A DNA stretch of 64,000 nt. Origin: a virus (lineage: Duplodnaviria > Heunggongvirae > Uroviricota > Caudoviricetes). Under the pieces are notes generated by a model. The model saw nothing but the letters and a program-made list of their open reading frames with translations. It had not been told where the DNA came from and did not search any database. Location of the stretch: the IMG/VR virus record IMGVR_UViG_2576861193_000002. One strand, written 5' to 3'. This document shows positions 3,072 through 41,243 of this stretch, piece after piece (position 1 is the first letter of the stretch; each line of letters starts with the position of its first letter). A program made the position numbers and the translations under genes.

Positions 3072-3208
3072 ACAGCCTTGCTTTATGAATAAAACGCACC
3101 CCAGCAGCCAGTGCTACTGGGGACGGAGGGGTTGCTGGTAAAGTTAGGTATTGGATCAATGAGTGAGTCAACATAATATTAAACTCACAATTATAAATCA
3201 GCCATATA

Positions 3209-4666
3209 TTAGGAGCGCCAAAAAAAACCTGAAAACAATATAATAACAGGATAAATTTCAAGGCGACCAAGAATCATAGCTATGCACATTAAACATTTTG
3301 CAATGTCATTAAGCACTCCGAATGACGATACAGTAGCCCCAAAACCTAATCCCATATTATTAATACATGCAGCCACTGTTGCAAATGATGTAAGAAAATC
3401 ATATCCCATACCATTTAACACCAGTATAAAAAACACCGTGAAGAGAGTATAAAGAAAAAAGAAACTCCATACAGACCTCATTACACGATCTGTAACTATC
3501 TTCCCTCCTACATTTACACTCAACAACGCTCTGGGATGAGAAAGCTGATTTATCTCGTGTTTGCTTTGTTTGAAAAGTATAAGAAATCGAAGTGACTTAA
3601 TTCCACCACAAGTTGAACCTATACATCCCCCAAAGAAACTTGACAACAGCAAAAACACTATCGTGTGCGTGGGCCAACTTGCATAATCCTGCGTAGCTAA
3701 ACCATTATCAGTGAGCATGGAGCTGGCAAGAAAAAACGAATGAATAAAACTTCCATGCAAGTCATACATACCTATATGCCAGACCTGGAAAGAGGTAACA
3801 ATGATCACCCCTAAGGCTATTAACAGAAAGAAACGAAGTTCAATATCTCTGATTAAAGGTTTTATCGTTTTCCTGCTAATAACAATATACCAAAGAGTGA
3901 AGTTGAAAGCCGATAGCAGGGAAAAAGAACCAGCCACCAGCTCAACCAAATAGTTATTAAAATATCCGATACTCTCGCTATGAGTTGAGAAACCACCAAG
4001 CGAAACTGTGGAAATCCCGTGACAAATAGCATCAAACAAAGGCATTCCTGCAAGTCTATAACAGACAATACAAGCAATACCTAATAAAGAATAAGTTATC
4101 CACAGTGTCCGTGACGTATCGGCCAGGCGGGGAGTGAGTTTGTCATCCTTAAATGGCCCCGGCATTTCTGACTGATAAAGCTTTGCACCACCAATACCCA
4201 ATAATGGCAATACAGCAACCGCCAGAACAATAACTCCTAAACCACCTATAAAATTTAACTGTGACCGATAGTACAAATATGCCCGAGGTAATGAACTAAC
4301 ATCATCAATTACAGTTGCTCCTGTTGTTGTTATTCCAGAAACCCCTTCAAACAGAGCATCAATGAACGTTAAATTAAGTTCTGAGTCAATCCATAAAGGG
4401 AATGCACTAATAACAGAAAACAAAATCCAAAACATTACAATTATAATAAACCCATCACGGGTACGTAATTGAATGCCAGATTTCTTAGTTGTATACCACG
4501 CTCCGCCACCAATGCAAAAAAATATAACGAAAGTTATAAAGAAAACGAACAGGCTTTTTTCTTTATAAAACAATGCTACAACCATTGGTGGCAACATTGA
4601 AAGACTATAGAGCCAAACCAGGAACCCACACATATGAGTAACAACTCTTACATGAGATGTATTCAT
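3209..4666 (-). CDS. trkG: Trk potassium uptake protein TrkG (prophage-borne TrkH paralog)
   Basis: Polytopic membrane protein; N-terminus MNTSHVRVVTHMCGFLVWLYSL recognised as TrkG; AT-rich gene inside Rac, as in E. coli K-12. Confidence 0.9.
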   Translation of the reverse strand: MNTSHVRVVTHMCGFLVWLYSLSMLPPMVVALFYKEKSLFVFFITFVIFFCIGGGAWYTTKKSGIQLRTRDGFIIIVMFWILFSVISAFPLWIDSELNLTFIDALFEGVSGITTTGATVIDDVSSLPRAYLYYRSQLNFIGGLGVIVLAVAVLPLLGIGGAKLYQSEMPGPFKDDKLTPRLADTSRTLWITYSLLGIACIVCYRLAGMPLFDAICHGISTVSLGGFSTHSESIGYFNNYLVELVAGSFSLLSAFNFTLWYIVISRKTIKPLIRDIELRFFLLIALGVIIVTSFQVWHIGMYDLHGSFIHSFFLASSMLTDNGLATQDYASWPTHTIVFLLLSSFFGGCIGSTCGGIKSLRFLILFKQSKHEINQLSHPRALLSVNVGGKIVTDRVMRSVWSFFFLYTLFTVFFILVLNGMGYDFLTSFATVAACINNMGLGFGATVSSFGVLNDIAKCLMCIAMILGRLEIYPVIILFSGFFWRS

Positions 4667-26901: not shown

Positions 26902-28137
26902 ATGTCTAAATTACCAACAGGTGTCGAGATTAGAGGTAGATACATTCGCATCTGGTTCATGTTTCGAGGAAAACGATGTCGGGAAACATTAAAAGGCTGG
27001 GAGATTACAAACAGTAATATTAAAAAGGCCGGAAATTTAAGAGTGCTGGTAGTTCATGAAATAAACTCCGGTGAATTTGAGTATTTAAGACGTTTTCCCC
27101 AGTCCAGCACTGGGGCAAAAATGGTGACAACGAGAGTCATAAAAACGTTCGGAGAGCTTTGTGATATCTGGACAAAAATTAAAGAGACAGAGTTAACAAC
27201 AAACACAATGAAGAAAACGAAATCACAATTAAAAACACTCAGAATAATAATTTGTGAAAGTACCCCGATATCACATATTCGTTATAGCGATATCTTAAAC
27301 TACCGGAATGAACTGCTGCATGGAGAAACGCTTTACCTGGATAATCCAAGATCCAACAAAAAAGGAAGAACCGTGCGCACAGTTGATAACTATATCGCCC
27401 TGCTCTGTTCGCTGTTGCGTTTTGCGTATCAGTCGGGATTTATATCAACCAAACCATTTGAAGGAGTAAAAAAATTACAGCGAAACAGAATAAAGCCTGA
27501 TCCGTTATCTAAAACAGAATTCAATGCATTAATGGAAAGTGAAAAAGGACAGAGCCAGAACTTGTGGAAATTTGCCGTTTACTCAGGACTTCGTCACGGG
27601 GAACTGGCAGCTCTGGCGTGGGAGGATGTGGATCTCGAAAAGGGAATAGTGAATGTCAGAAGAAACCTGACGATACTTGATATGTTCGGTCCCCCAAAAA
27701 CAAATGCCGGGATCCGAACAGTAACACTACTGCAGCCTGCTCTTGAAGCACTGAAGGAGCAATACAAACTGACCGGGCATCATCGCAAAAGCGAAATCAC
27801 CTTTTATCATCGGGAGTACGGCAGAACCGAAAAGCAAAAACTGCATTTTGTTTTCATGCCCAGGGTGTGTAACGGAAAACAAAAACCTTATTACTCGGTA
27901 AGCAGTTTGGGGGCAAGGTGGAATGCAGCAGTAAAACGTGCTGGTATTCGCCGCCGTAATCCGTACCATACGCGGCATACTTTTGCCTGCTGGCTGTTGA
28001 CGGCAGGAGCGAACCCGGCATTTATAGCCAGCCAAATGGGGCATGAAACTGCGCAGATGGTGTATGAAATTTACGGTATGTGGATTGATGACATGAACGA
28101 CGAACAGATAGCCATGTTGAATGCGCGGTTATCGTAG
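26902..28137 (+). CDS. intR: tyrosine integrase IntR
   Basis: 411 aa; C-terminal catalytic region; adjacent to ttcA. Confidence 0.9.
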   Translation: MSKLPTGVEIRGRYIRIWFMFRGKRCRETLKGWEITNSNIKKAGNLRVLVVHEINSGEFEYLRRFPQSSTGAKMVTTRVIKTFGELCDIWTKIKETELTTNTMKKTKSQLKTLRIIICESTPISHIRYSDILNYRNELLHGETLYLDNPRSNKKGRTVRTVDNYIALLCSLLRFAYQSGFISTKPFEGVKKLQRNRIKPDPLSKTEFNALMESEKGQSQNLWKFAVYSGLRHGELAALAWEDVDLEKGIVNVRRNLTILDMFGPPKTNAGIRTVTLLQPALEALKEQYKLTGHHRKSEITFYHREYGRTEKQKLHFVFMPRVCNGKQKPYYSVSSLGARWNAAVKRAGIRRRNPYHTRHTFACWLLTAGANPAFIASQMGHETAQMVYEIYGMWIDDMNDEQIAMLNARLS

Positions 28138-28188
28138 TTGCAAAGTTTGCCCCCAATTTGCCCCACTTAGTACCAGAGAACTGAAATA

Positions 28189-29124
28189 ATGCAAGAAAAT
28201 CAACAAATTACAAAGAAAGAACAATACAACCTGAACAAATTACAAAAACGTCTGCGTCGTAACGTGGGCGAAGCCATTGCTGACTTCAATATGATTGAAG
28301 AAGGCGATCGCATCATGGTTTGCCTCTCCGGGGGTAAAGACAGCTATACCATGCTGGAGATTCTGCGCAATTTGCAGCAAAGCGCGCCAATCAATTTTTC
28401 GCTGGTGGCTGTTAACCTCGATCAAAAGCAACCGGGCTTCCCGGAACACGTTCTGCCCGAGTATCTTGAAAAGCTGGGCGTTGAGTACAAGATTGTTGAA
28501 GAGAATACTTACGGTATCGTGAAAGAGAAGATTCCAGAGGGCAAAACCACTTGCTCACTGTGTTCTCGCCTTCGTCGCGGTATCCTTTATCGTACCGCAA
28601 CGGAACTGGGGGCGACGAAGATCGCGTTGGGTCACCATCGTGACGATATCCTGCAAACGTTGTTCTTAAATATGTTCTACGGCGGTAAGATGAAAGGTAT
28701 GCCTCCGAAACTGATGAGCGATGATGGCAAACATATCGTTATTCGTCCGCTGGCCTACTGCCGCGAGAAAGATATTCAGCGATTTGCCGATGCAAAAGCG
28801 TTCCCGATTATTCCGTGCAACCTGTGCGGTTCACAGCCTAACCTGCAACGTCAGGTGATTGCTGACATGTTGCGTGACTGGGATAAACGTTATCCAGGGC
28901 GTATCGAGACGATGTTCAGCGCGATGCAGAATGTGGTGCCGTCGCATCTGTGCGATACCAACCTGTTCGATTTCAAAGGCATCACCCACGGTTCTGAAGT
29001 GGTTAACGGGGGTGATCTGGCGTTTGATCGCGAAGAGATCCCACTACAACCGGCGTGCTGGCAGCCAGAAGAAGATGAAAATCAGTTGGATGAGTTACGG
29101 CTGAATGTGGTTGAAGTGAAATAA
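28189..29124 (+). CDS. ttcA: tRNA 2-thiocytidine(32) synthetase TtcA
   Basis: 311 aa; PP-loop SGGKDS; CxxC pairs; Rac attachment locus. Confidence 0.9.
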
Positions 29125-29252
29125 CCAGGATAGCGCCCGATGCGCAAGCGTATCGGGCTACTCTTATGGAGGCCGGATAAGACGCGGCCAGCGTCGCATC
29201 CGGCAATCCCGAATAAGATGTTTACTCTTGCACCCGGCAATTCAACATTTCA

Positions 29253-30626
29253 TTATTTTAATAACCGCACCCGGCACGTTTTTCCTTTAATCTTCCCGCC
29301 CTGTAACTGTTTCCATGCTTTATGAGCAACAGCCTGACGGACCGCGACATAGACATGCGCCGGATGCACGGCGATTTTGCCAATATCTGCGCCATCAAGC
29401 CCGATATCTCCTGTCAGTGCACCTAATACATCACCCGGGCGCATTTTGGCTTTTTTCCCGCCATCGATACACAACGTTGCCATTTCTGCTTCCAGCGTCG
29501 CAATGGAACTATTAGCTGGCGGCGTTTGCCAGTTAAGTTTTATCTGCAACATGTCAGAAATGATATTGGCCCGCTGTGCTTCTTCCGGAGCACAGAAACT
29601 GATCGCCAGACCGCTATTTCCTGCACGAGCTGTACGACCGATGCGATGTACATGAACTTCAGGGTCCCACGCCAGCTCAAAGTTCACCACCAGCTCAAGC
29701 GATTTAATATCCAGACCACGCGCAGCAACATCAGTCGCGACCAGTACACGGGCGCTACCGTTAGCAAAACGTACCAGGGTCTGATCGCGATCGCGTTGCT
29801 CCAAATCGCCGTGTAATGACAATGCACTTTGCCCTACTTCATTCAGCGCGTCGCAGACAGCCTGGCAATCTTTTTTGGTATTGCAAAACACCACGCAAGA
29901 GGATGGCTGATGCAAGCTTAATAACCGTTGCAACAGAGGAATTTTGCCTTTGCTGGATGTCTCATAAAATTGTTGTTCAATGGGTGGCAAAGCATCTGTT
30001 GAGTCAATTTCAATCGCCAAAGGATCGCGTTGCACTCGTCCGCTGATTGCAGCGATGGCTTCCGGCCAGGTTGCCGAAAACAGAAGCGTCTGTCGAGATG
30101 CAGGCGCAAAACGGATGACATCATCAATGGCATCGCTAAATCCCATATCCAGCATGCGGTCGGCCTCATCCATCACCAGCGTATTCAACGCATCCAGTGA
30201 TACCGTGCCTTTTTGCAGGTGATCCAGCAAACGCCCCGGCGTTGCCACGATAATATGCGGCGCATGTTGCAACGAATCACGCTGCATACCGAACGGTTGA
30301 CCACCGCACAACGTCAAAATTTTGGTATTTGGCAGAAAACGCGCCAGCCGACGCAATTCACCTGCCACCTGATCCGCCAGTTCACGCGTAGGACACAGCA
30401 CTAAAGCCTGGGTTTGAAATAGCGACGCATCAATTTGCTGTAACAAGCCGAGGCCAAAAGCCGCCGTTTTGCCGCTGCCGGTTTTCGCCTGCACGCGAAC
30501 ATCTTTTCCGGCAAGGATCGCCGGAAGCGCGGCGGCCTGCACCGGCGTCATGGTTAAATAACCCAACTCATTAAGGTTCGTGAGTTGGGCGGGAGGCAAA
30601 ACATTCAGGGTAGAAAAAGCGGTCAC
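29253..30626 (-). CDS. dbpA: ATP-dependent RNA helicase DbpA
   Basis: 457 aa DEAD-box helicase (Walker A GSGKT, DEAD motif); GTG start. Confidence 0.9.
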   Translation of the reverse strand: MTAFSTLNVLPPAQLTNLNELGYLTMTPVQAAALPAILAGKDVRVQAKTGSGKTAAFGLGLLQQIDASLFQTQALVLCPTRELADQVAGELRRLARFLPNTKILTLCGGQPFGMQRDSLQHAPHIIVATPGRLLDHLQKGTVSLDALNTLVMDEADRMLDMGFSDAIDDVIRFAPASRQTLLFSATWPEAIAAISGRVQRDPLAIEIDSTDALPPIEQQFYETSSKGKIPLLQRLLSLHQPSSCVVFCNTKKDCQAVCDALNEVGQSALSLHGDLEQRDRDQTLVRFANGSARVLVATDVAARGLDIKSLELVVNFELAWDPEVHVHRIGRTARAGNSGLAISFCAPEEAQRANIISDMLQIKLNWQTPPANSSIATLEAEMATLCIDGGKKAKMRPGDVLGALTGDIGLDGADIGKIAVHPAHVYVAVRQAVAHKAWKQLQGGKIKGKTCRVRLLK

Positions 30627-30655
30627 AATCTATTCTCGTGGTCATCGACGCAAAG

Positions 30656-30829
30656 TTAGCAGGCGCGTATCCTCGCAGATCTACGCTCACGATGCGACAA
30701 TTTAATCGGTTCTTCATCGGGTGGTGGGTCAGGCATGGGTTGCGGGCGAGGGATCGGATCGGGCACTGGAACAGGATCGCCAGGAATCGGTTCAGGGACA
30801 GGAATTTGCAAATAAATAAGTGTCGTCAT
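30656..30829 (-). CDS. candidate 57-aa proline-rich upstream ORF
   Basis: SD gaggga + ATG; MTTLIYLQIPVPEPIPGDPVPVPDPIPRPQPMPDPPPDEEPIKLSHRERRSARIRAC; ends 30 nt before dbpA start. Confidence 0.3.
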   Translation of the reverse strand: MTTLIYLQIPVPEPIPGDPVPVPDPIPRPQPMPDPPPDEEPIKLSHRERRSARIRAC

Positions 30830-30886
30830 ATTTCCCTCTGGTCATTGGGTGGACTCTTAAAGGGTAGACGCTGATAAATAACAGGC

Positions 30887-30998
30887 AAAAAAAAGCCGAC
30901 TCATCAAAGTCGGCGTCGTACGAATCAATTGTGCTATGCAGTAATTCAAAAAAGGAAGTAAGACAATATGGAGCGCAACGCCCATCGCTTGACGTTGC
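30887..30998 (-). ncRNA. fnrS: FnrS small RNA
   Basis: Reverse complement reads GCAGGTGAATGCAACGTCAAGCGATGGGCG…GCCGACTTTGATGAGTCGGCTTTTTTTT, matching FnrS as recalled; terminal hairpin + U-run. Confidence 0.8.
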
Positions 30999-31043
30999 AT
31001 TCACCTGCAAGAGAGATATTGCCCTGAATGGGTAGAGAGTTTA

Positions 31044-31057
31044 TTGACTTCGCTCAA
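31044..31057. promoter_or_regulatory. FNR box upstream of fnrS
   Basis: TTGAG-cgaa-GTCAA close to FNR consensus TTGAT-N4-ATCAA. Confidence 0.6.
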
Positions 31058-31103
31058 ACTTTGCGGCGTTTTTGTATACAGACAGCCGGAAAAATTGCTT
31101 TTG

Positions 31104-32108
<1,005 letters not shown>

Positions 32109-32482
32109 TTATTTTGTAGTCTAGCCTTCTGGCCCTGTTACGCAACATCTCATCACCCCATTACCCTGAAATGATTAATAAAATTCTGTCTAAATTGAAT
32201 ACAAAAAGCAAAATGCTTTTCCGTATACAAACCGTGTGAAGTGTTAAATAGCGTCTATCATTATCAGAATTATCTGATCATATGACGTGGCTTTTTTGCG
32301 ATCGGATAGCAACAAAAATTGATAAAAATAACGGGATCTCAATGATTACGCACAACTTCAATACCCTGGACTTACTCACCAGTCCTGTCTGGAATGGTTA
32401 GCACTATTAATAATAATTTATAAAACAGTATGTTATAGTGCTTTTGTTTTTGGTTTTGGATATTTGGTCACTATTTGGTACA

Positions 32483-32510
32483 CAAAAAGAAACGAGGCGT
32501 TAGCCTCGTT
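32483..32510 (-). terminator. intrinsic terminator after tail fibre gene
   Basis: Hairpin aacgaggc-gtta-gcctcgtt followed by U-run on minus strand. Confidence 0.55.
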
Positions 32511-32541
32511 TCGCGCGGCGATGTTCTTCGCACATCACCTC

Positions 32542-34731
32542 TTATTCTTCGCTTCCGGTCAACTGCCGGACAAGCTCTTCAAGTTTTGTGATCCGTTCAT
32601 CCATGACGGCAATGTTAGCTCGTAGGCTGGCATTCTCCCCTTCCAGTTCGGTGACGCGGTTATCTGTTTCGTGTGCCACCTGGACAAGTAAGCCAGTCAC
32701 TGCGGCATAATCAACATTGAGGTAACGCGATTCTTCGCGTAGCTCGTTGCCATCAATGGTCGGCCCCTGCAACTCTTTGCCGTAATGAGTAAACGATCCA
32801 ACAGCCTCCGGTAGCGCCTCCATAACCTCCTGAGCGATAACACCAGCGTAAGGCAGGCCGTTTTCCTTAAGGGTATAAGTGTACCCGTTCATTTTGCGGA
32901 TGGCTTCAGTTGCGTTATTTATAACCTGAATGTTGTCTTTAAGGTCGCGATCAGATGATTGATTTACTGATAAGCAAGTAACGCTTCCAGACGCTTTAAT
33001 ATTTGTCACATCAAGTCTGTCGTTTGCAAAATTATATGAGATTGCTGTGCTTGTGCTTCCGGCATCATCATAATTGCTTTTATGAATAAACCAGTTTCCG
33101 CCATTAGCAATAAGGGTATAAGCTGGCGTGTTAGCCGGGCGATCTGTTTCATCAAATCTTATTGCAGGGTTAGCACTATTTATTTGCAAAGGTTTTTCAA
33201 GCGTTGATTTCAGTATCGCACTATCTACAATTAAATTACCTTCTGAGTTAAGGTTTAGATATTTTGAATCACCAGTTGAACCATTGTATACAAACCTTAT
33301 TGTTAATTGACTTTTCCCTTCTGATAAAGTCTGAGCATACATATAAGCTGCAAGACGCAAATCGTCGTTAGTTGACAATAGTCTTGTGCGGAGGATTCCA
33401 CTAGATGTGCCTACGTCTGTCGAATCACTATATTTATCAAGAAATAGACTATTAAGCTGAGGGCTATTATCCCTGCCCAACCCTAGATTAGTTCTGGCAT
33501 TATCAAGGCTTGTCGCACCAGTGCCGCCTTGAGCAACGGCTAACGGTATCCATTTTTTTTGCGTATCGCTGTAACAACCCCACGATGAGGCAGATAAACC
33601 AAGTCGCATAGAGTTGTCAGCGTTATATATCCATGTTTCGCTGCCCCACTCACTAACCCTTTCGGTTGATACCATTTTTTTCCATGCGCTCCAACCTTGC
33701 CCGCCATACGACCTTCTGTAACTAATTTTCATATCGTTAAACAAATAATAGGTCTGCATGCACCCTTCTGAATCACCTGCGCCAGTTTTTTGCACTAACA
33801 ATGAACCAGCAATCTGTATGGGGTAATTTAATTCAGGTTTTGCGTTTGCTGATAATACTTGATGATAAAATCCTGCTGCGCTTCCTTTTAAGTCATCAAG
33901 ATTCTGTCTATCGCTAAGGGTAGTTTTTGCATCATGCATAACCATTAGGTTTTTTCTGGCTTCTGCTGCGTTTCCAGCACCAGTACCGCCATACATAACG
34001 CCTAACTTAAGTGCCCCGGCGGTTGAATAAGCACCCCACCCAGCGTTATTAACGAAGATGTAATTTTTATTTTCTCCGTCCCGCAACTGAGTTTCTTTTG
34101 AGGAACCACCATTTTGAAGCAAGCGATTTACTTCATCCTTGCGTGCGTGGCGTGTCCAGTTCTGGCCTGATGCTGCGACCCATGTATAAGTATAAAGTGA
34201 TCGCGTAGACCAACCGACAAAGACGCCAGCATATGAAGGCGACGCATCCCGCTGACAGATAAATCCACTCAAAAATGATTCGCCAGCCGCTACGGAAGGA
34301 AAGCCCTTAGTCGTTTCCTTTATGCGCAAAAAGCCAACGTAAGAAGACGGATCGCCTGATATATCGACGCAATCTCGCGGCTCTGGACCCAAGCCAATAT
34401 TGCTGCCATCTATTGCGCTTGATATTTCATCTTCCTTTTCCTGATAAAAACGAAGTGTTTCAGCTACATCCTGGGCAAGCCCATCAACTGAGATCGAATC
34501 AGAAAGCAGAATACTAAATTTTGTTCCGGCAGGGATGGCGGGGTTAGCCGCTGGCGTTACTGACAGTTCAGTACCGCTTTTAATTTCTGTGATGGTAAAG
34601 ATCTGCACCGGATTGCCGATTGCAATGAGCGTGCAACCTACACGAATGAGAGAAAGCGGCGCGGAAAAGTTTGTTCCCGTGCCTGTAACAGTATTGCCAT
34701 TAATGGCAATTGTTCCAGTTGTGTAAATCAT
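32542..34731 (-). CDS. tail fibre/tailspike with C-terminal intramolecular chaperone (peptidase S74-like) domain
   Basis: 729 aa; C-terminus …DLKDNIQVINNATEAIRKMNGYTYT… with coiled-coil tail, typical of autoproteolytic fibre chaperone domains. Confidence 0.75.
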   Translation of the reverse strand: MIYTTGTIAINGNTVTGTGTNFSAPLSLIRVGCTLIAIGNPVQIFTITEIKSGTELSVTPAANPAIPAGTKFSILLSDSISVDGLAQDVAETLRFYQEKEDEISSAIDGSNIGLGPEPRDCVDISGDPSSYVGFLRIKETTKGFPSVAAGESFLSGFICQRDASPSYAGVFVGWSTRSLYTYTWVAASGQNWTRHARKDEVNRLLQNGGSSKETQLRDGENKNYIFVNNAGWGAYSTAGALKLGVMYGGTGAGNAAEARKNLMVMHDAKTTLSDRQNLDDLKGSAAGFYHQVLSANAKPELNYPIQIAGSLLVQKTGAGDSEGCMQTYYLFNDMKISYRRSYGGQGWSAWKKMVSTERVSEWGSETWIYNADNSMRLGLSASSWGCYSDTQKKWIPLAVAQGGTGATSLDNARTNLGLGRDNSPQLNSLFLDKYSDSTDVGTSSGILRTRLLSTNDDLRLAAYMYAQTLSEGKSQLTIRFVYNGSTGDSKYLNLNSEGNLIVDSAILKSTLEKPLQINSANPAIRFDETDRPANTPAYTLIANGGNWFIHKSNYDDAGSTSTAISYNFANDRLDVTNIKASGSVTCLSVNQSSDRDLKDNIQVINNATEAIRKMNGYTYTLKENGLPYAGVIAQEVMEALPEAVGSFTHYGKELQGPTIDGNELREESRYLNVDYAAVTGLLVQVAHETDNRVTELEGENASLRANIAVMDERITKLEELVRQLTGSEE

Positions 34732-34865
34732 CGCAATGACTCCATTTTGTTAATTAACGGAATAATTCTACCATTTTGTGATCTGTGTTGCATTTTATGC
34801 TTATACAAAATGTATATTATAATAAACAAAGCAACAAATACACACAATCTGAGTGGGGTGTACTA

Positions 34866-35084
34866 ATGAAAATGGTAACAATTATCGCTGTTGCGGCTAT
34901 TCTGGTTGGTTGCGCTGACACTAATCGACACAACGGTCATTGTGCAACTAGCGCATACGGTGTCTGCTATGAAAGATGGGTTGATGGTGTAATGGTTCCT
35001 GCCGGGGAAATTTGTCGGGTGTATGATGGCACTGATGGCCATAGTGGCAAGACTAGAGATTGCGGAAGTAAGGAGTGGTATTAA
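34866..35084 (+). CDS. Cys-rich small lipoprotein (candidate receptor-masking / superinfection exclusion)
   Basis: 72 aa; signal peptide + lipobox LVGC; 6 Cys; counter-oriented between tail fibre and J. Confidence 0.55.
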   Translation: MKMVTIIAVAAILVGCADTNRHNGHCATSAYGVCYERWVDGVMVPAGEICRVYDGTDGHSGKTRDCGSKEWY

Positions 35085-36019
35085 TGGGTGCAGGTATATA
35101 TATTGGGCTGAATGACGGACGCCCTGCAATGGAAATAACAAGCGGGTTGCGTGCGTTCTCACACGCTGGAGATTTCAATATTCAAAAGGCCGGGTTTTTG
35201 CAAAGTTTTTCCATAAAGGATTTAACTGGCGGAGATAAGTTTTTAATCCCAAAGGCAGGCGCTTACGCGTTTGAGCTTGACCGGGGCGTTGAAACATATT
35301 TTATATCAGGCTTTAGTGCTTCTGGTGGCACGGCAAGGATTTCAATTAGTGGTGAGAACGCATATTCTGATAGGATCACTAATTTTAGCGGTAGCGTGTT
35401 TGAGATAGCAAAGGCGTCTACTGGTGAGGGTATATTAGTTGCAGATAGCACAGGTTTTGCATCGATAACGACTAACGATACATTGATGTCATGTTTATGG
35501 GTTGGAAGTGTTAGCTTTACTGGGTCTTACACTATGCCAGTTGCTGGCGTTCCTTTCGGTAACTGGAGCAATAGCGGAGTTTCAGTTGAGTTTGACGGAA
35601 ACAATAAATTGATCTGTACAAACACAAACACCTCTTCCACTGGTGACACATATGGATCTGTGGCGATGAATTTGGCTATTTTTAGCAAATCACCGCCATC
35701 ACCTGGCGACGGAATAACCATCATCAATAAAAATAATCAATGCGTGTTTTCAACAAAACAAAGGCCATTGGTTGTTAAGGGATTTATAACGTTATCTAAT
35801 AGTTATCAGAATATTGGTGACGCATTCTTCCCAATATTGAGATGCGGCTTTAATACCAGAGCCATTAAAGCATACAAGGAGCTAAGATACAAAGGCATTA
35901 TGATGTACAATGGGCAGGTGAAAAGCGGAACAGGATCAAGGATTGTCAGGTATGAAATAGGTAACAGGCCGGATTTCTGTATAGGTATGAAGCTACCTTA
36001 TTTGCCAGCAATTTATTAA
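35084..36019 (+). CDS. hypothetical Ser/Thr/Gly-rich protein
   Basis: ~311 aa; ATG overlaps lipoprotein stop, SD aaggag; no recognisable family. Confidence 0.5.
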   Translation: MGAGIYIGLNDGRPAMEITSGLRAFSHAGDFNIQKAGFLQSFSIKDLTGGDKFLIPKAGAYAFELDRGVETYFISGFSASGGTARISISGENAYSDRITNFSGSVFEIAKASTGEGILVADSTGFASITTNDTLMSCLWVGSVSFTGSYTMPVAGVPFGNWSNSGVSVEFDGNNKLICTNTNTSSTGDTYGSVAMNLAIFSKSPPSPGDGITIINKNNQCVFSTKQRPLVVKGFITLSNSYQNIGDAFFPILRCGFNTRAIKAYKELRYKGIMMYNGQVKSGTGSRIVRYEIGNRPDFCIGMKLPYLPAIY

Positions 36020-36059
36020 TAAAATTAGTTGCCCCAACCATTTGGCGGGGCAACAGTTA

Positions 36060-39000
36060 TTACCAAACACCAATAATAATTTTACCACCACTAGGAAGAT
36101 TTACCGTAATGCCGTTATTGTTAATAATTACCCGTCCGTCACTATTGCGTACATCGAAATTTTGATTGCCTTTAACAATGACGTTACCCCTTACGGTGAC
36201 TTCGTTGAATTGCGCCCATCCATCTTTGTTAATCATCCAACCTTTTGAGTCTTGAACAAATACGGTTGACTGGATTTGCTGCGCTATTTTTGCAGTACCG
36301 ATAGATCCGTCTTTAATAAACGCTTCTTTAACATACATTGCATCATTGGTGGTATAGAAAGGTGATGTGTATGTGCCGTTTGCTGCGGTCATCAACACGA
36401 AGCGGTCAACGAGGAAAATACACTGCGATTGAACGTTAGTGCCGCTACCAGTCAGCCCAAGAGACATACCTGTTGCATACTTCATGCCGTTGTTGTCGGT
36501 TGCCAGCTTGATAGAGTACGTCGCATCAACATTACCTTTGAAGTCGGTTAACGCTTTCGACGTCGTCTGTATCGCTGTTGTGTTCCCGTTAACGGTCACT
36601 GTTAGCTGATCGATTTTGCTTGATAATGCCTCGTCAGCCGTCGCCATTGCCTGCGACCATTCTGTAATATTTGAGTTTACAGAATCGAAAGACGCTGAGA
36701 TCTGGCCAAATTTTTCCGCGCTTGATGCTTCATGCGTAGAAAGTGCCGTTGACACCTCTGATACCTTCGAATTAATCGTACTGGTAAGCGATGAGTTAAG
36801 ACTACTGATTGCGTCAGTACGGGCCTTCGTTTCGTCTGCAATAGCCTTATCAATACGGGTTACGTTACTTGTCACCTTACTATCAAGCGTGGAAATTGAT
36901 GCGTTCACTCCGCTGATAGCCTGGGCGCGGGCGCTTGATTCGTCGGCAATAGCCTGATCCAGCCTGCTAACTTCAGATTCAGTGTTGTTTTCAAGCGTGC
37001 TAATACTTGCATTCACTCCACTGATAGCTTCAGTTCTTGCGCTTGTCTCATCTGCAATGGCTTTATCAAGACGGCTTATTCTTGAATCCGTTTTCTTGTC
37101 TAGCGCTGACACTGAGGCATTTACTCCGCTGATAGCCTCGCTGCGTGCGCTGGTTTCGTCTGCAATTGCCCTATCAAGGCGGTTGACGCTTGCTTCCGTC
37201 TTCCTATCAAGATCGGTGATCGATGCGTTTACGGAGCTAATGGCTTCCGCTGTGGCTTTTTTCTCCTCTGCTATAACATTGTCAATACGGTCAATTTGCG
37301 CGTTGGTTTCTTTGCGGCCTTTCTTGTATTGGGCCGTGAGAGTAACCCGCGTGTTGGTTTGAGCAATAGAGTTGTTGATAAGTGCGATTGAGGCGTTTTG
37401 CAGACTTGCTTTAGTCTGATTTATTTCGTCGCTGTTTTTGTCAACGTTATTTTCAACAGTGCCAAGCTCCGCGCTGATGCCCGATATTGCCTGTGCACGG
37501 GCGCTTGATTCATCTGCAATTGCCTGATCAAGACGTTTAACGCTGGCGTTTGTGCTATTTTCAAGCGTTGTTAAATCAGCTTTAACCTCTGTTATTGCGG
37601 CGCTTCTTGCCTGCGTTTCATCTGATATTGCTTTATCAAGACGGGAAACGCTCGCGTCAGTTTTGCTTTCAAGATTGCTTATTGAGGCGTTAACGTCGCT
37701 AATGGCCTGGGTGCGGGCACTGGTTTCATCTGCAACCGCTTGATCCAGTCTGCTTACTTCTGATTCTGTATTGTTTTCAAGTGTGCTAATACTTGCATTC
37801 ACGCTACTGATAGCGTCTGTGCGTGCTTTTGTTTCGTCTGCTATCGCTTTATCAATGCGGTTAATGTTGCTTGTAACTTTGCCGTCAAGCGTGGAAATTG
37901 AGGTATTCACGCCGCTGATGGCTTCAGTTCTTGCACTGGTTTCATCTGCAATTGCCTGATCCAAGCGTTTTACGCTGGCGTCAGTTTTCTTGTCTAGCGT
38001 TGAAATACTTGCATTTACGTCGCTGATGGCTTGAGTCCGCGCGCTAGTCTCGTCAGCGATTGCTTGATCAAGGCGGTTAACGCTTGCGTCAGTTTTCTTA
38101 TCAAGATTGCTTATTGAAGCGTTTACACCGTTAATAGCTTCAGCGCGGGCGCTGGCCTCGTCAGCTACTGCGCGCTGCACGTTAGAAATCTGACCTTTAA
38201 GGTTGGAGTCCATCGTATTCATTTCTGCTGTGATGGTTTCCAGTGATTCCGCTGTCGCTTTTTTCTCTTCAGCGATAACGTTGTCAATGCGGTCGATTTC
38301 CGCTTTAGTCTCTGTCCTGCCTTTCTTGTACTGAGCGGTAAGAGTTACGCGCGTGTTTGTCTGTGCAAGTGAGTTATTAATAAGAGCAAGTGACGCGTTT
38401 TGCAGGCTTGCTTTTGCTTGCGCCAGTTCGCTGCCAACTTTTTCGCTGGACACTTCTAATGAGTCAATTCTTGCCTCATGCTGTCCAATATCATCGGCGT
38501 TTTCCTCAACCTTTTTATAAAGATCTTCCGTTTCTTTTTTCAGTGTGTCCGTATCAGCTTTTATGGCCCCTGTTTCTGTGATTAGGCCGTCCGTATCAAT
38601 CCTCAAATCGTCAGTGATGTTTGTCAGGTTGTCCGTGTCAACCCTCAAATCGTCAGTGATGTTTGTCAGGTTATCAGTTGCAGTTTTGAGGTTGTCGGTA
38701 GCAGTTTTAAGGTCATTTGTAGCGCTTTCGATAAGATCAGCGCGGTCGCCAAGATCTTTAATGTCGCTAATCATCCCCTTAAACTGTTCTGAATTAATTA
38801 CGTCTTTTGTGACGTAGTCGCTAATTTCATCGAAGTTTTCAGTTGGTTTGCCTGATGCCTCAACGAAATCTGACACGCCAAAAGCGTTACGTGTACGAAT
38901 ATAAACGTAATAGGTGTGCCCCGTGTTCATGCCGCCAAAAGTCCACTGATAGCCGCGCCCGGTAAACTGCGCTGATGTGGTTACTTTTGATGGATCTGTG

Positions 39001-41243
39001 ATCTGGTTTTCACCTGCGAAGTAAAATTCGTATGCTGTATCAGTGGTCAGGGTTGTTTTGCTAATCGGATACACTGTTGCCTGGAAAACACCAGGAACCC
39101 AATTAACGCCGACCGGGGCCGCTGGTGCACCAATAACCAGGTCCACAATACTTTCCGCACCCTTCATGCCAGTGTCATTACGCCCGCGAATACCAAGCGT
39201 GTAGCTGCCAGTATCAAGGCCATAAAACTCATAGCGGTAATTCGTTGTTTCATAAGTTGCCACCACGCGGCCTTCGGCGTTATATACGCGTATTTCAAAG
39301 GTCAGGCGATGCGTTGTCGTCTGTGTTTCCCATGTAGCGCGACATTGAACAGTTTCAGAACCAACATTTAACACCTTCAGGTTTTCAATGTTCGGCACGC
39401 GGAAGTGATTAAGCGTGTCGTTGTTTACCTCAAAGATTGCGCCTTCATCGACTACAGCCTGTTTATGTGGGTCATGCTGTGCTGCCTCGATGGTGTACAC
39501 GCTGTTGTTTTCAGTTTCTGCTACGCTGATGATTCGGCACAGGACGGGTTTTGCTGCGTCAGTTGATACAGCAAAAACAGTTCCGTTACGAATCCACGCG
39601 GGGGCGGCTGCAAGGGTGATATTGTTTCCGTTAACTCCGGTGATCTGGTGTTTTTTAAACTTGCCATCACTATCAAGTAAACTAATGGTATCGCCTGCGG
39701 CGATGTATTCCGAATCAACCTTATCTACCGTTATCACCTTGCCATTATTCGCCACGATACGACCGCCAAAACGAGCGCCTGCGCGGTTATTGTCGAGTAT
39801 CTCGATAATATCCCCAGGGGTGAAGTGAATTGCGTCGCGGGCCATTTTAAACGTGAATTTTGATGGTTCGCGTTTTGCTGTTTCTATCAGCCACTTGCCA
39901 GCGCGGTATGCCTGCCCGCGTGAAGTGCAACCGAAAGCCTCTAGCGTGGTTTCGTTATAACCATCGCGGGCGATCAATTCATCATCTGCCACGTATTCTT
40001 TTGATTGCTCCCAACCGTTTTCCGGGTCAGTCCATGACACGATAACTGCGTTGTAAGATTCTGCACGGGCAATACTTGAACGAGTAAACGCGCCATCAAC
40101 AACGTTAGCATTCGTGATGGTAGCAATTGGATCTTGCGGTGCATCAATCATCACCGTAAGGCGCTGCCCATCCCATAACGCGATACCACGGAACATGCCT
40201 GCGATATTGTCCAGTAAGTCGCGGGCGCTCATTTGCTCAGTTATGTAAGCATTAAGCGTCATGCGAGGTTCAAAGCCGCCGTAACCGTCGTTTACCAACT
40301 GGTCGCAGTATTGAGAAAGCGTATATAATGCGCCGTCGTCAACATCAATGTAACCAGCATGACGTGCAAGCCCGAAACGTTCATTTTTAACCAGATACCG
40401 GAATAGCCACGCAGGGTTATTGGTGTACGCTTTTTTAAATCCACCTAGCCATAAACCTGAATACGTGCGCGTTTCAGGGTTATAGTTGTCAGGCACATCA
40501 ACAATCAGTCCGCGCAGATGATAGGTGCGGGTAGGTGTATCAGTATACTGGTCATGGTCAATTACAGCACCAGCTACAGCGGTATGAGGGTAAGACAGGT
40601 TATCGTCGATTATTTCGCTGTAGCTACTCCACCGCGTATCATTACGAAGAAGATCGCTTTTGCTGTCTGCTGTTACGCGACGAACGCGAATATCAAACGG
40701 CTTTTCATCCGGCGCTTTGATAATGTGAGCTTCCAGATATTCACCGCTTTGTTTACCGGGACCAATGTGTATACCTTTAACCGGCGACCACGTAGAAGAT
40801 GATGACGGTTTAACATCAACCACCAACATAACGGATGTATTATATTGATTGCCCTCATCATCTGACTGAACAAGAGCATCAACGCCAAGATTTAACCTTA
40901 CGCGGGTAACGTTTGGATCTGAAACAGTCCTTATTATTGGCGTGTCGTGAGTTACCTTTGCGTTGACAATAACGGTTGATTCGATGGCATTAAAACCATT
41001 AATCGGCGATTGGTCAGCCGTGCCGTTGCGCCAGGCTATACTAATCCCAGGAATTGATGTGTTTCCGTTTGCGTCAGTGATAGGCGTGTCATTAAGCATT
41101 ACGTTGTTTAATGGCGCATTCTGGTTAACTACTCCAAAAATTGGTCCTTCACTTAGAATATCTAAAACCCGATAAAATTGTTTATGAAACAAATTATCAT
41201 TAAGCAAAGTTGGTGTTTTTGCTTTACCGCCGCCACTAGACAT
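36060..41243 (-). CDS. J-like host specificity / central tail fibre protein with long coiled-coil repeat insert
   Basis: 1727 aa; follows L-K-I; middle third is tandem ~35-aa repeats (…DETSARTQAISDVNASISTLDKKTDASVKRLDQAIA…). Confidence 0.85.
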   Translation of the reverse strand: MSSGGGKAKTPTLLNDNLFHKQFYRVLDILSEGPIFGVVNQNAPLNNVMLNDTPITDANGNTSIPGISIAWRNGTADQSPINGFNAIESTVIVNAKVTHDTPIIRTVSDPNVTRVRLNLGVDALVQSDDEGNQYNTSVMLVVDVKPSSSSTWSPVKGIHIGPGKQSGEYLEAHIIKAPDEKPFDIRVRRVTADSKSDLLRNDTRWSSYSEIIDDNLSYPHTAVAGAVIDHDQYTDTPTRTYHLRGLIVDVPDNYNPETRTYSGLWLGGFKKAYTNNPAWLFRYLVKNERFGLARHAGYIDVDDGALYTLSQYCDQLVNDGYGGFEPRMTLNAYITEQMSARDLLDNIAGMFRGIALWDGQRLTVMIDAPQDPIATITNANVVDGAFTRSSIARAESYNAVIVSWTDPENGWEQSKEYVADDELIARDGYNETTLEAFGCTSRGQAYRAGKWLIETAKREPSKFTFKMARDAIHFTPGDIIEILDNNRAGARFGGRIVANNGKVITVDKVDSEYIAAGDTISLLDSDGKFKKHQITGVNGNNITLAAAPAWIRNGTVFAVSTDAAKPVLCRIISVAETENNSVYTIEAAQHDPHKQAVVDEGAIFEVNNDTLNHFRVPNIENLKVLNVGSETVQCRATWETQTTTHRLTFEIRVYNAEGRVVATYETTNYRYEFYGLDTGSYTLGIRGRNDTGMKGAESIVDLVIGAPAAPVGVNWVPGVFQATVYPISKTTLTTDTAYEFYFAGENQITDPSKVTTSAQFTGRGYQWTFGGMNTGHTYYVYIRTRNAFGVSDFVEASGKPTENFDEISDYVTKDVINSEQFKGMISDIKDLGDRADLIESATNDLKTATDNLKTATDNLTNITDDLRVDTDNLTNITDDLRIDTDGLITETGAIKADTDTLKKETEDLYKKVEENADDIGQHEARIDSLEVSSEKVGSELAQAKASLQNASLALINNSLAQTNTRVTLTAQYKKGRTETKAEIDRIDNVIAEEKKATAESLETITAEMNTMDSNLKGQISNVQRAVADEASARAEAINGVNASISNLDKKTDASVNRLDQAIADETSARTQAISDVNASISTLDKKTDASVKRLDQAIADETSARTEAISGVNTSISTLDGKVTSNINRIDKAIADETKARTDAISSVNASISTLENNTESEVSRLDQAVADETSARTQAISDVNASISNLESKTDASVSRLDKAISDETQARSAAITEVKADLTTLENSTNASVKRLDQAIADESSARAQAISGISAELGTVENNVDKNSDEINQTKASLQNASIALINNSIAQTNTRVTLTAQYKKGRKETNAQIDRIDNVIAEEKKATAEAISSVNASITDLDRKTEASVNRLDRAIADETSARSEAISGVNASVSALDKKTDSRISRLDKAIADETSARTEAISGVNASISTLENNTESEVSRLDQAIADESSARAQAISGVNASISTLDSKVTSNVTRIDKAIADETKARTDAISSLNSSLTSTINSKVSEVSTALSTHEASSAEKFGQISASFDSVNSNITEWSQAMATADEALSSKIDQLTVTVNGNTTAIQTTSKALTDFKGNVDATYSIKLATDNNGMKYATGMSLGLTGSGTNVQSQCIFLVDRFVLMTAANGTYTSPFYTTNDAMYVKEAFIKDGSIGTAKIAQQIQSTVFVQDSKGWMINKDGWAQFNEVTVRGNVIVKGNQNFDVRNSDGRVIINNNGITVNLPSGGKIIIGVW

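What the first reader, a model, noticed from the sequence alone, without database searches (positions are those of the whole stretch)
30656..30829. Proline-rich 57-aa upstream ORF directly preceding dbpA
An ORF with SD gaggga encodes a peptide dominated by PxP/PPP motifs and ends 30 nt before the dbpA start. Polyproline stretches need EF-P for efficient translation, so this could be a leader peptide coupling dbpA expression to translation capacity. I am not certain it is annotated in reference genomes.
Basis: inference. Interest (0 to 1): 0.4.

Follow-up and report, generated by a model that had tools for sequence, protein, structure and literature searches.

The report
Known small-protein gene ynaL before dbpA
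The proline-rich 57-codon reading frame just upstream of the RNA helicase gene dbpA is real and translated, but it is the already annotated E. coli small-protein gene ynaL, and whether it tunes dbpA through the proline-rescue factor EF-P is still untested.

Summary
The ORF exists as described, but on the minus strand (window 30829..30656). It has a strong GAGGG Shine-Dalgarno, is 16/57 proline, and stops 29 nt before the dbpA GTG.

It is not new. It is ynaL (b4743, "proline-rich small protein YnaL", Pfam PF23677). It is annotated in K-12 MG1655 and in every sampled row of 5393/5426 complete E. coli genomes holding the region. It was first mistaken for the sRNA C0343, then shown to be coding, ribosome-covered and detectable as a tagged protein.

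My comparison of 80 Enterobacteriaceae dbpA loci found it in all 80.
- A 29-residue core (DPVPxPDPIPRPQPMPDPPPDEEPIKLSH) is under strong protein-level selection (dN/dS about 0.03).
- The N-terminus is unconstrained.
- The C-terminal tail is dispensable as peptide.
- Two 3' nucleotide blocks are invariant even at wobble positions, which I could not explain.
- PPP is kept in 73/80 loci.

The EF-P leader-peptide idea is plausible, but nothing I found in the literature or computed shows it. No conserved RNA switch or terminator was found. The conservation also extends far beyond a stall motif.

Verdict: already known gene, function open, low interest.

The parts
30656..30829 (-). ynaL coding sequence (57 aa, ATG..TAA), the 'proline-rich small protein YnaL'
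   Evidence: ORF list and sequence. RefSeq annotation ynaL/WP_001296046.1 and b4743. Pfam PF23677 at 136.9 bits against a cutoff of 27. Identical 57-aa sequence SPA-tagged and detected in PMC6001520.
30834..30838 (-). ynaL Shine-Dalgarno GAGGG, 4 nt upstream of the ATG (between the last G of the SD and the ATG)
   Evidence: Sequence. A GGAGG-type SD was present before the ATG in 8 of the 11 representative genera inspected; the farthest-ATG calls of L050, L061 and L081 show none.
30692..30778 (-). Conserved proline-rich core, codons D18-H46 (DPVPVPDPIPRPQPMPDPPPDEEPIKLSH)
   Evidence: For codons D18-P41 (window 30778..30707), codon-position diversity is 0.087/0.052/0.520 and all 24 third positions vary. 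Median dN/dS over the whole 29-codon core D18-H46 is 0.033. AF2 gives an extended chain with no secondary structure and pLDDT about 90 for residues 21-40.
30716..30730 (-). DPPPD motif (PPP codons CCA CCA CCC at 30727..30719), the predicted EF-P-dependent stall site
   Evidence: Sequence. DPPPD in 69, DPPPN in 4, DPSPD in 4 and DPPQ/DPPA in 3 of 80 loci. EF-P dependence is inferred from established knowledge of X-PP-X motifs, not measured here.
30692..30709 (-). Block A, CCGATTAAA(T/A)TGTCGCAT (codons P41-H46): nucleotide-level invariant. Its GUCGCA (30698..30693) is complementary to UGUGAC at the dbpA start (30627..30622).
   Evidence: Third-position diversity is 0.029 against 0.52 in the neighbouring core. 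It forms the only consensus helix found by RNAalifold, but that helix is invariant, so there is no covariation test.
30662..30682 (-). Block B, AGATCTG(C/A)GAGGATACGCGCC (codons R50-A56): nucleotide-level invariant element of unknown function
   Evidence: Third-position diversity is 0.011. It is retained unchanged in 13 loci where an in-frame stop codon lies upstream of it. It is single copy in E. coli genomes.
30627..30655 (-). 29-nt ynaL-dbpA spacer, with the weak dbpA SD-like GAGA at 30637..30634
   Evidence: Sequence. GAGA and the GTG start are invariant and the rest is variable. No terminator-like site was found.
29253..30626 (-). dbpA (ATP-dependent RNA helicase DbpA, 457 aa, GTG start)
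   Evidence: ORF list. RefSeq annotation. GTG start in all 80 loci: 79 were read directly as GTG and L041, mis-indexed by 6 nt, was checked by eye.
30887..31008 (-). FnrS sRNA with its intrinsic terminator (stem 30914..30895, U-tract to 30887), immediately upstream of ynaL
   Evidence: Rfam RF01796 at 134.8 bits. Terminator scan. K-12 annotation b4699.
30861..30888 (-). Candidate weak sigma-70 promoter for ynaL-dbpA (TTGCCT, 16 nt, TACCCT), overlapping the end of the FnrS terminator. Inference only.
   Evidence: Read by eye from the sequence. The region is conserved. It falls below the threshold of the promoter scan, which found nothing in 30500-31200. No TSS data could be obtained.

Best explanation
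Identity (about 0.98): the feature is ynaL, an already annotated and experimentally detected small-protein gene. It lies in the conserved Enterobacteriaceae arrangement zntB - fnrS - ynaL - dbpA.

Mechanism (much less certain, inferred; the confidence value given refers to this part): ynaL is the first cistron of a ynaL-dbpA transcript and acts mainly in cis.
- It has a strong SD, whereas dbpA has a GTG start and only a GAGA SD. The ynaL stop lies 14-63 nt upstream of the dbpA start in 77 of 80 loci; in 3 loci the ORF runs past the dbpA start.
- dbpA output therefore probably depends on ribosomes completing ynaL. Two routes are possible: translational coupling, or protection of the C-rich, rut-like proline-codon tract from Rho.
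- Because the invariant core contains DPPPD, completion of ynaL should need EF-P. That would tie DbpA, a late 50S-assembly helicase, to elongation performance.

Shown: the gene is real, translated, under strong peptide-level selection, and always linked to dbpA.
Inferred: co-transcription, coupling or polarity, and EF-P dependence.
The peptide core itself, nascent or released, must also matter, because 29 residues rather than 3 are conserved.
For: Identity:
- RefSeq and K-12 annotation.
- Pfam PF23677 full-length hit at 136.9 bits.
- The identical 57-aa protein was SPA-tagged and detected, and noted as adjacent to dbpA and possibly in an operon (PMC6001520).
- RIBOseq coverage, with earlier RNAcode evidence that 'sRNA C0343' encodes this 57-aa protein (PMC5331693; PMC4152356).

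Linkage:
- A ynaL ORF precedes dbpA in 80/80 loci selected through DbpA.
- Conversely, YnaL homologues from Klebsiella, Salmonella and an endosymbiont all lie between a CorA-family gene (zntB) and dbpA.
- The family is confined to Enterobacteriaceae: 206 hits in 5.8 billion proteins, with all named hits enterobacterial.

Selection: core codon-position diversity 0.087/0.052/0.520 and dN/dS 0.033.

Cis features:
- Strong ynaL SD against an invariant weak dbpA GAGA plus GTG.
- No terminator-like site and no sigma-70 promoter-like site between the two genes.
- PPP kept in 73/80 loci.
- The core has a C/G ratio up to 2.6 per 78 nt, the 99th percentile of the window.
- Polyproline stalling without EF-P is known to uncouple transcription from translation and cause Rho polarity (PMC5021804).
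- Invariant nucleotide blocks at the ynaL 3' end persist whether or not they are translated, which points to a cis element upstream of dbpA.

Circumstantial: DbpA and EF-P are both more abundant in exponential phase (PMC13393375).
Against: - There is no direct evidence for co-transcription, coupling or EF-P dependence, and no paper in the held library links ynaL or dbpA expression to EF-P.
- The only consensus helix (GUCGCA:UGUGAC) is invariant, so it cannot be tested by covariation.
- Masking the mRNA at the PPP or at the LSH codons gives no consistent change in predicted accessibility of the dbpA start across 15 species.
- The stop position relative to dbpA is not fixed: -63 to -14, and overlapping in 3 loci.
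- Four of 80 species have DPSPD, with no PP.
- Peptide-level selection over 29 residues, and accumulation of the tagged protein, fit a trans-acting product equally well.
- A zntB-to-dbpA-start fragment fused to lacZ in pRW50 gave only low activity (PMC1802558). Transcription reaching dbpA is therefore weak, and its origin is unknown.
Confidence: 0.4

Rival explanations
1. YnaL is a trans-acting small protein. Its extended, acidic polyproline-II-like core (residues about 18-46) would act as a linear ligand for a partner such as DbpA, a ribosome-assembly intermediate or another protein. It would sit upstream of dbpA simply as an operon partner. Any EF-P dependence would be incidental.
For: - Strong purifying selection on 29 consecutive residues, far more than a stall motif needs.
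- The SPA-tagged protein accumulates to detectable levels (PMC6001520).
- AF2 predicts a confident extended segment with no secondary structure (pLDDT about 90 for residues 21-40, pTM 0.22), as expected for a PPII ligand.
- There is compositional resemblance to the TonB proline-rich rod, though it is sub-threshold (NF008084 at 20.8 bits against a cutoff of 315; PF16031 E=0.68).
- A Salmonella allele with a 10-residue internal duplication of the PxP repeat is widespread (181 contigs), suggesting the rod length can vary.
Against: - No partner is known, and no fold or domain was found.
- The N-terminal third is unconstrained, and the C-terminal tail is untranslated in 13/80 loci.
- The invariant nucleotide blocks and the strict adjacency to a weakly initiating dbpA are not explained by a purely trans role.
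- The tag may stabilise an otherwise short-lived peptide.
Confidence: 0.35
2. YnaL is a nascent-peptide sensor of ribosome state that does not depend on EF-P. In this reading the conserved 29 residues lie in the exit tunnel. The alternating Pro/Asp/Glu sequence (PDPPPDEEP) would cause arrest or intrinsic ribosome destabilisation. That would respond to Mg2+, bL31 or peptidyl-transferase-centre quality and would set dbpA expression, in the manner of SecM, MgtL or MgtQ.
For: - The pattern of a variable N-terminus followed by a conserved block of about 30 residues is what tunnel-acting arrest peptides show (inference).
- Proline combined with acidic residues drives pausing or destabilisation in MgtL and MgtQ (PMC12856214; PMC8092293).
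- In 13 loci the peptide ends 1-3 codons after the conserved core.
- The downstream gene is a helicase that acts on the 23S region forming the peptidyl-transferase centre (established knowledge).
Against: - No conserved alternative RNA structure was detected that would transduce a stall.
- The motif lies after about 33 residues. Published work indicates that a filled tunnel counteracts destabilisation (my own knowledge, not tested here).
- The full-length tagged protein is made, so arrest is not absolute.
Confidence: 0.12
3. The region is a non-coding RNA (the former sRNA candidate C0343), or the ORF is a chance or antisense-derived frame without a functional product.
For: - It was historically listed as the ncRNA C0343.
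- The 3' blocks are conserved at the nucleotide level.
Against: - There is no Rfam hit.
- The three-base periodicity of substitutions, with dN/dS 0.033 in the sense frame.
- The wobble-compatible antisense frame carries stops in 35/76 loci and has no conserved start.
- The start codon is kept, a GGAGG-type SD is present in most genera inspected, and ribosome coverage and tagged protein are reported.
Confidence: 0.02

Closest known systems
YnaL (E. coli K-12 b4743; Pfam PF23677 'Protein YnaL-like'; formerly sRNA candidate C0343)
   Same: The 57-aa sequence, position (fnrS / dbpA) and orientation are identical to the published and annotated gene.
   Different: Nothing differs; this is the same gene. 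What I add is the comparative anatomy: an unconstrained N-terminus, a selected 29-aa core, a dispensable tail and invariant nucleotide blocks.
Salmonella mgtP / mgtL proline-codon leader ORFs of mgtCBR and mgtA (responsive to EF-P, Pro-tRNA and Mg2+)
   Same: Both are short ORFs upstream of the regulated gene containing (consecutive) proline codons, whose translation speed depends on EF-P or proline supply (PMC5299641 and PMC6460261, listed; PMC5021804; PMC12856214).
   Different: Those leaders sit in long 5' UTRs with defined alternative stem-loops, attenuators and Rho sites, and only the Pro codons matter. ynaL has no detectable conserved switch or terminator. It encodes a much longer peptide under strong selection, and it yields a detectable protein.
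mgtQ, the 8-codon intergenic ORF that promotes mgtB translation (PMC8092293)
   Same: Both are small ORFs directly upstream of a gene, where translation of the small ORF is proposed to free the downstream start region. Acidic, ribosome-destabilising residues lie next to Pro in both.
   Different: mgtQ has an experimentally defined inhibitory stem-loop. For ynaL only a 6-bp invariant complementarity to the dbpA start is seen, and it is unsupported by folding across species.
SecM-secA and TnaC-tnaA arrest peptides
   Same: Each is an upstream ORF with a variable N-terminal part and a conserved C-proximal peptide segment ending in or near proline. The downstream gene has a weak or masked start (established knowledge; PMC12856214).
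   Different: No arrest has been shown for YnaL. There is no signal sequence or ligand logic, and no conserved SD-sequestering hairpin.
TonB proline-rich rod and other PPII spacers
   Same: Both have an alternating X-Pro acidic/basic repeat predicted to be extended.
   Different: Only sub-threshold compositional matches were found. YnaL has no TonB N-terminal anchor or C-terminal domain.

Membership tests
YnaL family (Pfam PF23677 / PGAP 'proline-rich small protein YnaL') | Full-length match to the family HMM above the gathering score | tested here: met
   PF23677.1 at 136.9 bits (cutoff 27), residues 1-57 matching profile positions 1-57.
YnaL family (Pfam PF23677 / PGAP 'proline-rich small protein YnaL') | Position between fnrS/zntB and dbpA, in the same orientation as dbpA | tested here: met
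   Window layout. K-12 annotation. 80/80 dbpA loci. Reverse check from YnaL homologues.
YnaL family (Pfam PF23677 / PGAP 'proline-rich small protein YnaL') | Evidence that the ORF is translated | tested here: met
   Codon-periodic substitution pattern with dN/dS 0.033. Published SPA-tag immunoblot and ribosome-profiling support.
EF-P / proline-responsive regulatory leader ORF (mgtP/mgtL type) | Short ORF immediately upstream of, and co-oriented with, the regulated gene | tested here: met
   The ynaL stop lies 29 nt before the dbpA GTG.
EF-P / proline-responsive regulatory leader ORF (mgtP/mgtL type) | Consecutive proline codons that are conserved | tested here: met
   PPP in 73/80 loci and PP in 76/80. 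Four loci have DPSPD.
EF-P / proline-responsive regulatory leader ORF (mgtP/mgtL type) | Alternative RNA structures, a terminator or a masked RBS whose state depends on ribosome position in the leader ORF | tested here: not met
   No terminator-like site between ynaL and dbpA. RNAalifold finds only one invariant 6-bp helix. The extended model shows weak covariation, with helix 3 only 68% paired. Masking ribosome footprints gives no consistent effect on the dbpA start across 15 species.
EF-P / proline-responsive regulatory leader ORF (mgtP/mgtL type) | Downstream gene expression changes with EF-P or with mutation of the Pro codons | not testable with these tools
   This needs reporter or ribosome-profiling experiments. 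Nothing was found in the literature.
Ribosome arrest peptide (SecM/TnaC/MifM type) | Conserved peptide segment of tunnel length next to a defined arrest point, with a variable N-terminus | tested here: inconclusive
   The conservation pattern fits, with a 29-aa core and a variable N-terminus. No arrest point can be defined from sequence.
Ribosome arrest peptide (SecM/TnaC/MifM type) | Demonstrated elongation or termination arrest | not testable with these tools
   Requires toeprinting or peptidyl-tRNA assays.
Small non-coding RNA (C0343) | Conserved secondary structure or a match to an RNA family, with no coding signal | tested here: not met
   No Rfam match in 29000-32500 other than FnrS and two sub-threshold (29 and 25 bits against a gathering score of 59.5) naRNA4 matches at 29171-29209. 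No consensus structure. Clear coding periodicity.
TonB-type proline-rich region | Match above the curated cutoff to the TonB models | tested here: not met
   NF008084 at 20.8 bits against a cutoff of 315. PF16031 at 11 bits against a cutoff of 33.

The most novel reading that the evidence does not exclude
ynaL could be a dedicated cis-acting 'translation-quality' leader for the 50S-assembly helicase DbpA. Under this reading, ribosomes must push a strongly conserved Pro/Asp/Glu-rich nascent chain (DPPPDEEP, needing EF-P and a competent peptidyl-transferase centre) through the tunnel in order to reach, and act on, an invariant 21-nt plus 18-nt RNA element just upstream of dbpA. DbpA synthesis would then report on elongation or PTC performance. 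The invariant blocks would be a new, family-specific regulatory element whose ligand is unknown.
Probability: 0.2. Interest if true: 0.55.

Novelty: already known. Interest (0 to 1): 0.2.

Why it matters
As an observation it adds nothing: ynaL is in the reference annotation, and its translation was published in 2011-2018. Its function, however, is still unknown.

The comparative picture here sharpens what an experiment should test.
- A 29-residue proline-rich core is conserved as tightly as DbpA itself.
- A predicted strong EF-P motif sits inside that core.
- Two nucleotide-invariant blocks lie between that core and a weakly initiating dbpA.

If ynaL does gate dbpA through elongation performance, it would be a rare example of a ribosome-assembly factor regulated by a readout of ribosome function. 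It would also be a natural EF-P-responsive leader in E. coli itself. If it acts in trans, it would be a conserved polyproline-II ligand with an unknown partner.

Tried and rejected
1. Mimicry of 23S rRNA hairpin 92 (the DbpA target) by the ynaL-dbpA leader. The local alignment score was no better than shuffles: 132/200 shuffles reached it against the whole 23S, and 342/500 against domain V. Rejected.
2. Complementarity of blocks A and B to 16S or 23S rRNA. Duplex energies fell within the shuffle range. Rejected.
3. Pairing of FnrS with the leader. The duplex energy was worse than most shuffles (277/300). A by-eye complementarity turned out to be topologically inconsistent. Rejected.
4. A stall-dependent or transit-dependent RNA switch unmasking the dbpA start. 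Only an invariant 6-bp helix was found. Covariation was weak. Footprint masking had no consistent effect. Not supported.
5. A CsrA site at GCGAGGAUACGC in block B.
   - The hairpin's middle pair is broken in Kosakonia and Pseudescherichia.
   - The GGA is lost in two Klebsiella species.
   - The Potts 2017 supplement lists dbpA with no CLIP peak and no significant change.
   - Rejected.
6. An internal sigma-70 promoter for dbpA in blocks A and B. No hexamer arrangement fits, and the scan found none on either strand.
7. Overlapping genes as the cause of wobble invariance.
   - The wobble-compatible antisense Gly-rich frame has stops in 35/76 loci.
   - The third antisense frame has stops in 76/76 loci.
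   - The codon-aligned antisense frame is mostly open, but its wobble would fall on sense position 1, which is conserved.
   - The sense +1-frame ORF (30717..30571, 48 aa) lacks a conserved ATG.
   - Rejected.
8. A repeated regulatory motif elsewhere in the genome. The 55-nt element is single copy in all 5393 genomes.
9. A fold for YnaL. AF2 gives no secondary structure and pTM 0.22, so no fold search was run.
10. Literature and supplement searches for ynaL in EF-P ribosome profiling (PMC11611912), 3'-end mapping (PMC7815308) and small-protein profiling (bioRxiv 511675) found nothing usable. The Thomason dRNA-seq paper is not held, so no TSS was obtained.
Full report
**1. What is in the sequence**

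The ORF lies on the minus strand, from the ATG at 30829 to the TAA at 30658..30656. It encodes MTTLIYLQIPVPEPIPGDPVPVPDPIPRPQPMPDPPPDEEPIKLSHRERRSARIRAC, which is 57 aa with 16 prolines and one PPP.

- It is preceded by AGAGGGAAAT, with GAGGG at 30838..30834.
- It ends 29 nt before the GTG start of dbpA (30626; dbpA spans 29253..30626).
- Directly upstream is the sRNA FnrS (Rfam RF01796, 134.8 bits, 31008..30891) with its intrinsic terminator.
- Upstream of that is zntB (32087..31104).

**2. It is an annotated, published gene**

- A megablast of the region against complete E. coli genomes finds it in 5393 of 5426. Every row sampled across the ranking carries the feature 'ynaL: (proline-rich small) protein YnaL'.
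- The CDS coordinates correspond exactly.
- K-12 MG1655 lists ynaL as b4743 / YP_009518775.1 at 1409308-1409481, between fnrS (b4699) and dbpA (b1343).
- The protein matches Pfam PF23677 'YnaL' end to end at 136.9 bits.
- VanOrsdel et al. 2018 (PMC6001520) list the identical 57-aa sequence. They detected the chromosomally SPA-tagged protein by immunoblot, noted it as a positive in an earlier tetracycline ribosome-profiling screen, and remarked that it sits next to dbpA, possibly in an operon.
- Neuhaus et al. 2017 (PMC5331693) report a ribosomal coverage value of 2.49 for the locus in EHEC. They state that the former 'ncRNA C0343' encodes a 57-aa protein, as first shown with RNAcode.

**3. Comparative anatomy (new analysis)**

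Using DbpA as bait I fetched 80 loci from one genome per species. These cover Escherichia, Citrobacter, Enterobacter, Leclercia, Lelliottia, Klebsiella, Raoultella, Salmonella, Kosakonia, Pseudescherichia and others.

- All 80 carry a proline-rich ORF ending near the dbpA start. The six that my first scan missed have it too.
- The converse also holds. YnaL homologues from Klebsiella, Salmonella and an endosymbiont all lie between a CorA-family gene (zntB) and dbpA.
- Sequence and profile searches of 5.8 billion proteins return only 164 and 206 hits. All carry PF23677, and all named ones are from Enterobacteriaceae.

Within the ORF there are four zones:

- (a) About 17 N-terminal codons have diversity 0.48/0.46/0.62 at codon positions 1/2/3, plus indels. 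They are essentially unconstrained, though often hydrophobic.
- (b) The core. Over D18-P41 diversity is 0.087/0.052/0.520 and every third position varies. Over the whole 29-codon core D18-H46, median dN/dS versus E. coli is 0.033 at dS about 1.2. This is strong selection on the peptide DPVPxPDPIPRPQPMPDPPPDEEPIK(L/M)SH.
- (c) Three variable codons (R47-R49). In 13 loci from several genera an in-frame TAG or TAA ends the ORF here.
- (d) The tail RSARIRAC. Its DNA is invariant at all three codon positions.

The wobble-compatible antisense frame is interrupted in 35/76 loci, so it is the sense frame that is under selection. AlphaFold2 with a 29-sequence alignment gives an extended chain with no secondary structure (pTM 0.22, pLDDT about 90 for residues 21-40). 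This indicates a polyproline-type rod rather than a fold.

**4. The EF-P motif**

Residues 34-38 are DPPPD in 69 loci, DPPPN in 4, DPSPD in 4, and DPPQ or DPPA in 3. From established work on X-PP-X motifs (Ude, Doerfel, Peil, Starosta; cited in PMC12856214), D-PP-P and P-PP-D are strong EF-P-dependent contexts. A strong SD raises that dependence further. EF-P dependence of YnaL synthesis is therefore a good prediction, but it is not measured anywhere I could search. The EfpL/EF-P profiling supplement lists only the weak PPI motif of dbpA itself.

**5. Is there a device that would transmit ynaL translation to dbpA?**

In favour:
- dbpA has an invariant GTG start and only GAGA as an SD.
- No terminator-like site and no sigma-70-like promoter separates the two genes.
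- The proline-codon tract is C-rich, with a C/G ratio up to 2.6 per 78 nt, the 99th percentile of this window. This is the composition of Rho-loading sites.
- Loss of EF-P is known to uncouple translation from transcription at polyproline motifs and to cause Rho-dependent polarity (PMC5021804).

Against a specific switch:
- RNAalifold finds only one consensus helix, GUCGCA (codons L44-H46, 30698..30693) with UGUGAC at the dbpA start (30627..30622). It is invariant, so it offers no covariation.
- An extended model taken from the E. coli minimum-free-energy fold is 88% paired, against 35-52% for slid controls. However, it was derived from one of the sequences, and its only covarying helix is just 68% paired.
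- Masking the mRNA under a ribosome placed at the PPP or at the LSH codons does not consistently change predicted accessibility of the dbpA start in 15 species.
- The ynaL stop ranges from -63 to -14 relative to dbpA, and in three Klebsiella species the ORF overlaps dbpA.

Generic coupling or polarity is therefore plausible. A dedicated attenuator or unmasking switch is not supported.

**6. An unexplained element**

Two blocks are invariant across genera even at wobble positions:
- Block A: CCGATTAAA(T/A)TGTCGCAT, window 30709..30692.
- Block B: AGATCTG(C/A)GAGGATACGCGCC, window 30682..30662.

Their third-position diversity is 0.03 and 0.01, against 0.52 next door. Block B stays invariant where it lies after a stop codon. 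This is nucleotide-level constraint on something 36-83 nt upstream of the dbpA start.

I could not assign it. It is not explained by any of the following:
- an Rfam family;
- a conserved structure;
- rRNA mimicry or complementarity;
- pairing with FnrS;
- a CsrA site;
- a promoter;
- an overlapping ORF;
- a repeated motif.

Codon 44 is only ever TTG or ATG.

**7. Transcription**

I could not obtain TSS data. A weak promoter-like TTGCCT-16-TACCCT overlaps the end of the FnrS terminator (30888..30861) and is conserved, but it falls below the scan threshold. Read-through from the FNR-activated fnrS promoter is the alternative. A cloned fragment running from inside zntB to the dbpA start gave low lacZ activity with little FNR effect (PMC1802558).

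**8. Explanation and rivals**

The identity is secure: this is ynaL. For function I weigh the options as follows.

- **Cis-acting first cistron (about 0.4).** Completion of ynaL would be predicted to need EF-P and would support dbpA expression by coupling or anti-polarity.
- **Trans-acting polyproline ligand (about 0.35).** Selection on 29 residues and accumulation of the tagged protein fit this equally well.
- **Nascent-chain arrest or ribosome-destabilisation sensor of the SecM/MgtL/MgtQ kind (about 0.12).** This fits the variable N-terminus, the tunnel-length conserved block and the Pro plus Asp/Glu chemistry. It has no structural transducer.
- **A non-coding or chance reading.** This is excluded for practical purposes.

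These roles are not mutually exclusive.

**9. Comparison with known systems, and novelty**

The gene is a member of the YnaL family, and all three defining features I tested are met. It resembles proline-codon leaders (mgtP, mgtL) and the coupling ORF mgtQ in position and chemistry. It fails the one structural criterion I could test, a ribosome-position-dependent RNA structure or terminator. It should therefore not be filed as a member of that class, although it may still work like one.

The feature is already known. The EF-P idea does not appear in the held literature, but it is untested, and by itself it does not account for the breadth of conservation.

Interest is low (0.2). The most novel reading still open is a translation-quality leader acting through an unknown invariant RNA element on a ribosome-assembly helicase. 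I give it about a 0.2 probability, and it would be of moderate interest if true.

Noticed in passing
window 30709..30692 and 30682..30662 (minus strand): Two blocks at the 3' end of ynaL are invariant across about 80 enterobacterial species even at wobble positions. Block B stays invariant in 13 species where a stop codon lies upstream of it. This is a nucleotide-level element 36-83 nt before the dbpA start, and I could not assign its function.
   Followed up: partly
window 32542..41243 (minus strand ORFs of 729 and 1727 aa) and onward: Phage tail-fibre / 'pyocin knob S74 peptidase' type genes abut ynaN-zntB, where K-12 and many strains have dgcM. No complete E. coli genome in the collection covers 80% or more of 32088-37000; the best covers 63% at 91.6% identity. 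This points to an uncommon prophage or tail-fibre mosaic at this site.
   Followed up: partly
window 32148..32101 (minus strand): A 15-codon [18 protein letters not shown], ends 13 nt before the zntB start. It corresponds to the annotated micro-protein YnaN (b4773), seen. This is a second annotated upstream small ORF in the same neighbourhood.
   Followed up: partly
L002 (CP169086.1, titled Enterobacter hormaechei strain B17-3), 2798-4371: This record's ynaL and the upstream region analysed (-330..+30) are 100% identical at the DNA level, and its DbpA is 100% identical at the protein level, to the E. coli window. Genuine Enterobacter loci are about 91% identical at the DbpA protein level and carry a different YnaL N-terminus. 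The record title looks like a species mislabel or contamination.
   Followed up: no
P0053 / L088-L090 (Salmonella enterica), gene at 2501-2713: A 70-aa YnaL allele, seen on 181 contigs, carries a 10-residue internal duplication of the PxP repeat (…PIPDPRPHPQPMPDPRPHPQPMPDPPPDEEP…). The length of the proline rod can therefore vary while the DPPPDEEPIK end is kept.
   Followed up: no
window 30717..30571 (minus strand): A 48-aa ORF lies in the +1 frame relative to ynaL (MKNRLNCRIVSVDLRGYAPANFASMTTRIDCD…). It starts at the ATG inside GAT GAA (D38-E39) and runs across the dbpA start. Its ATG is absent wherever D38 is encoded by GAC, so it is probably not a gene.
   Followed up: partly
window 26902..29124 (plus strand): A 411-aa ORF and a 311-aa ORF lie downstream of dbpA. 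They match the sizes and order of the Rac-type integrase intR and of ttcA in K-12. The dbpA-ynaL-fnrS-zntB block in this window is therefore flanked by prophage-related DNA on both sides.
   Followed up: no
window 29171..29209: There are weak, sub-threshold Rfam matches to naRNA4 on both strands, between dbpA and ttcA (29.1 bits against a gathering score of 59.5). This is probably a REP-like palindrome.
   Followed up: no
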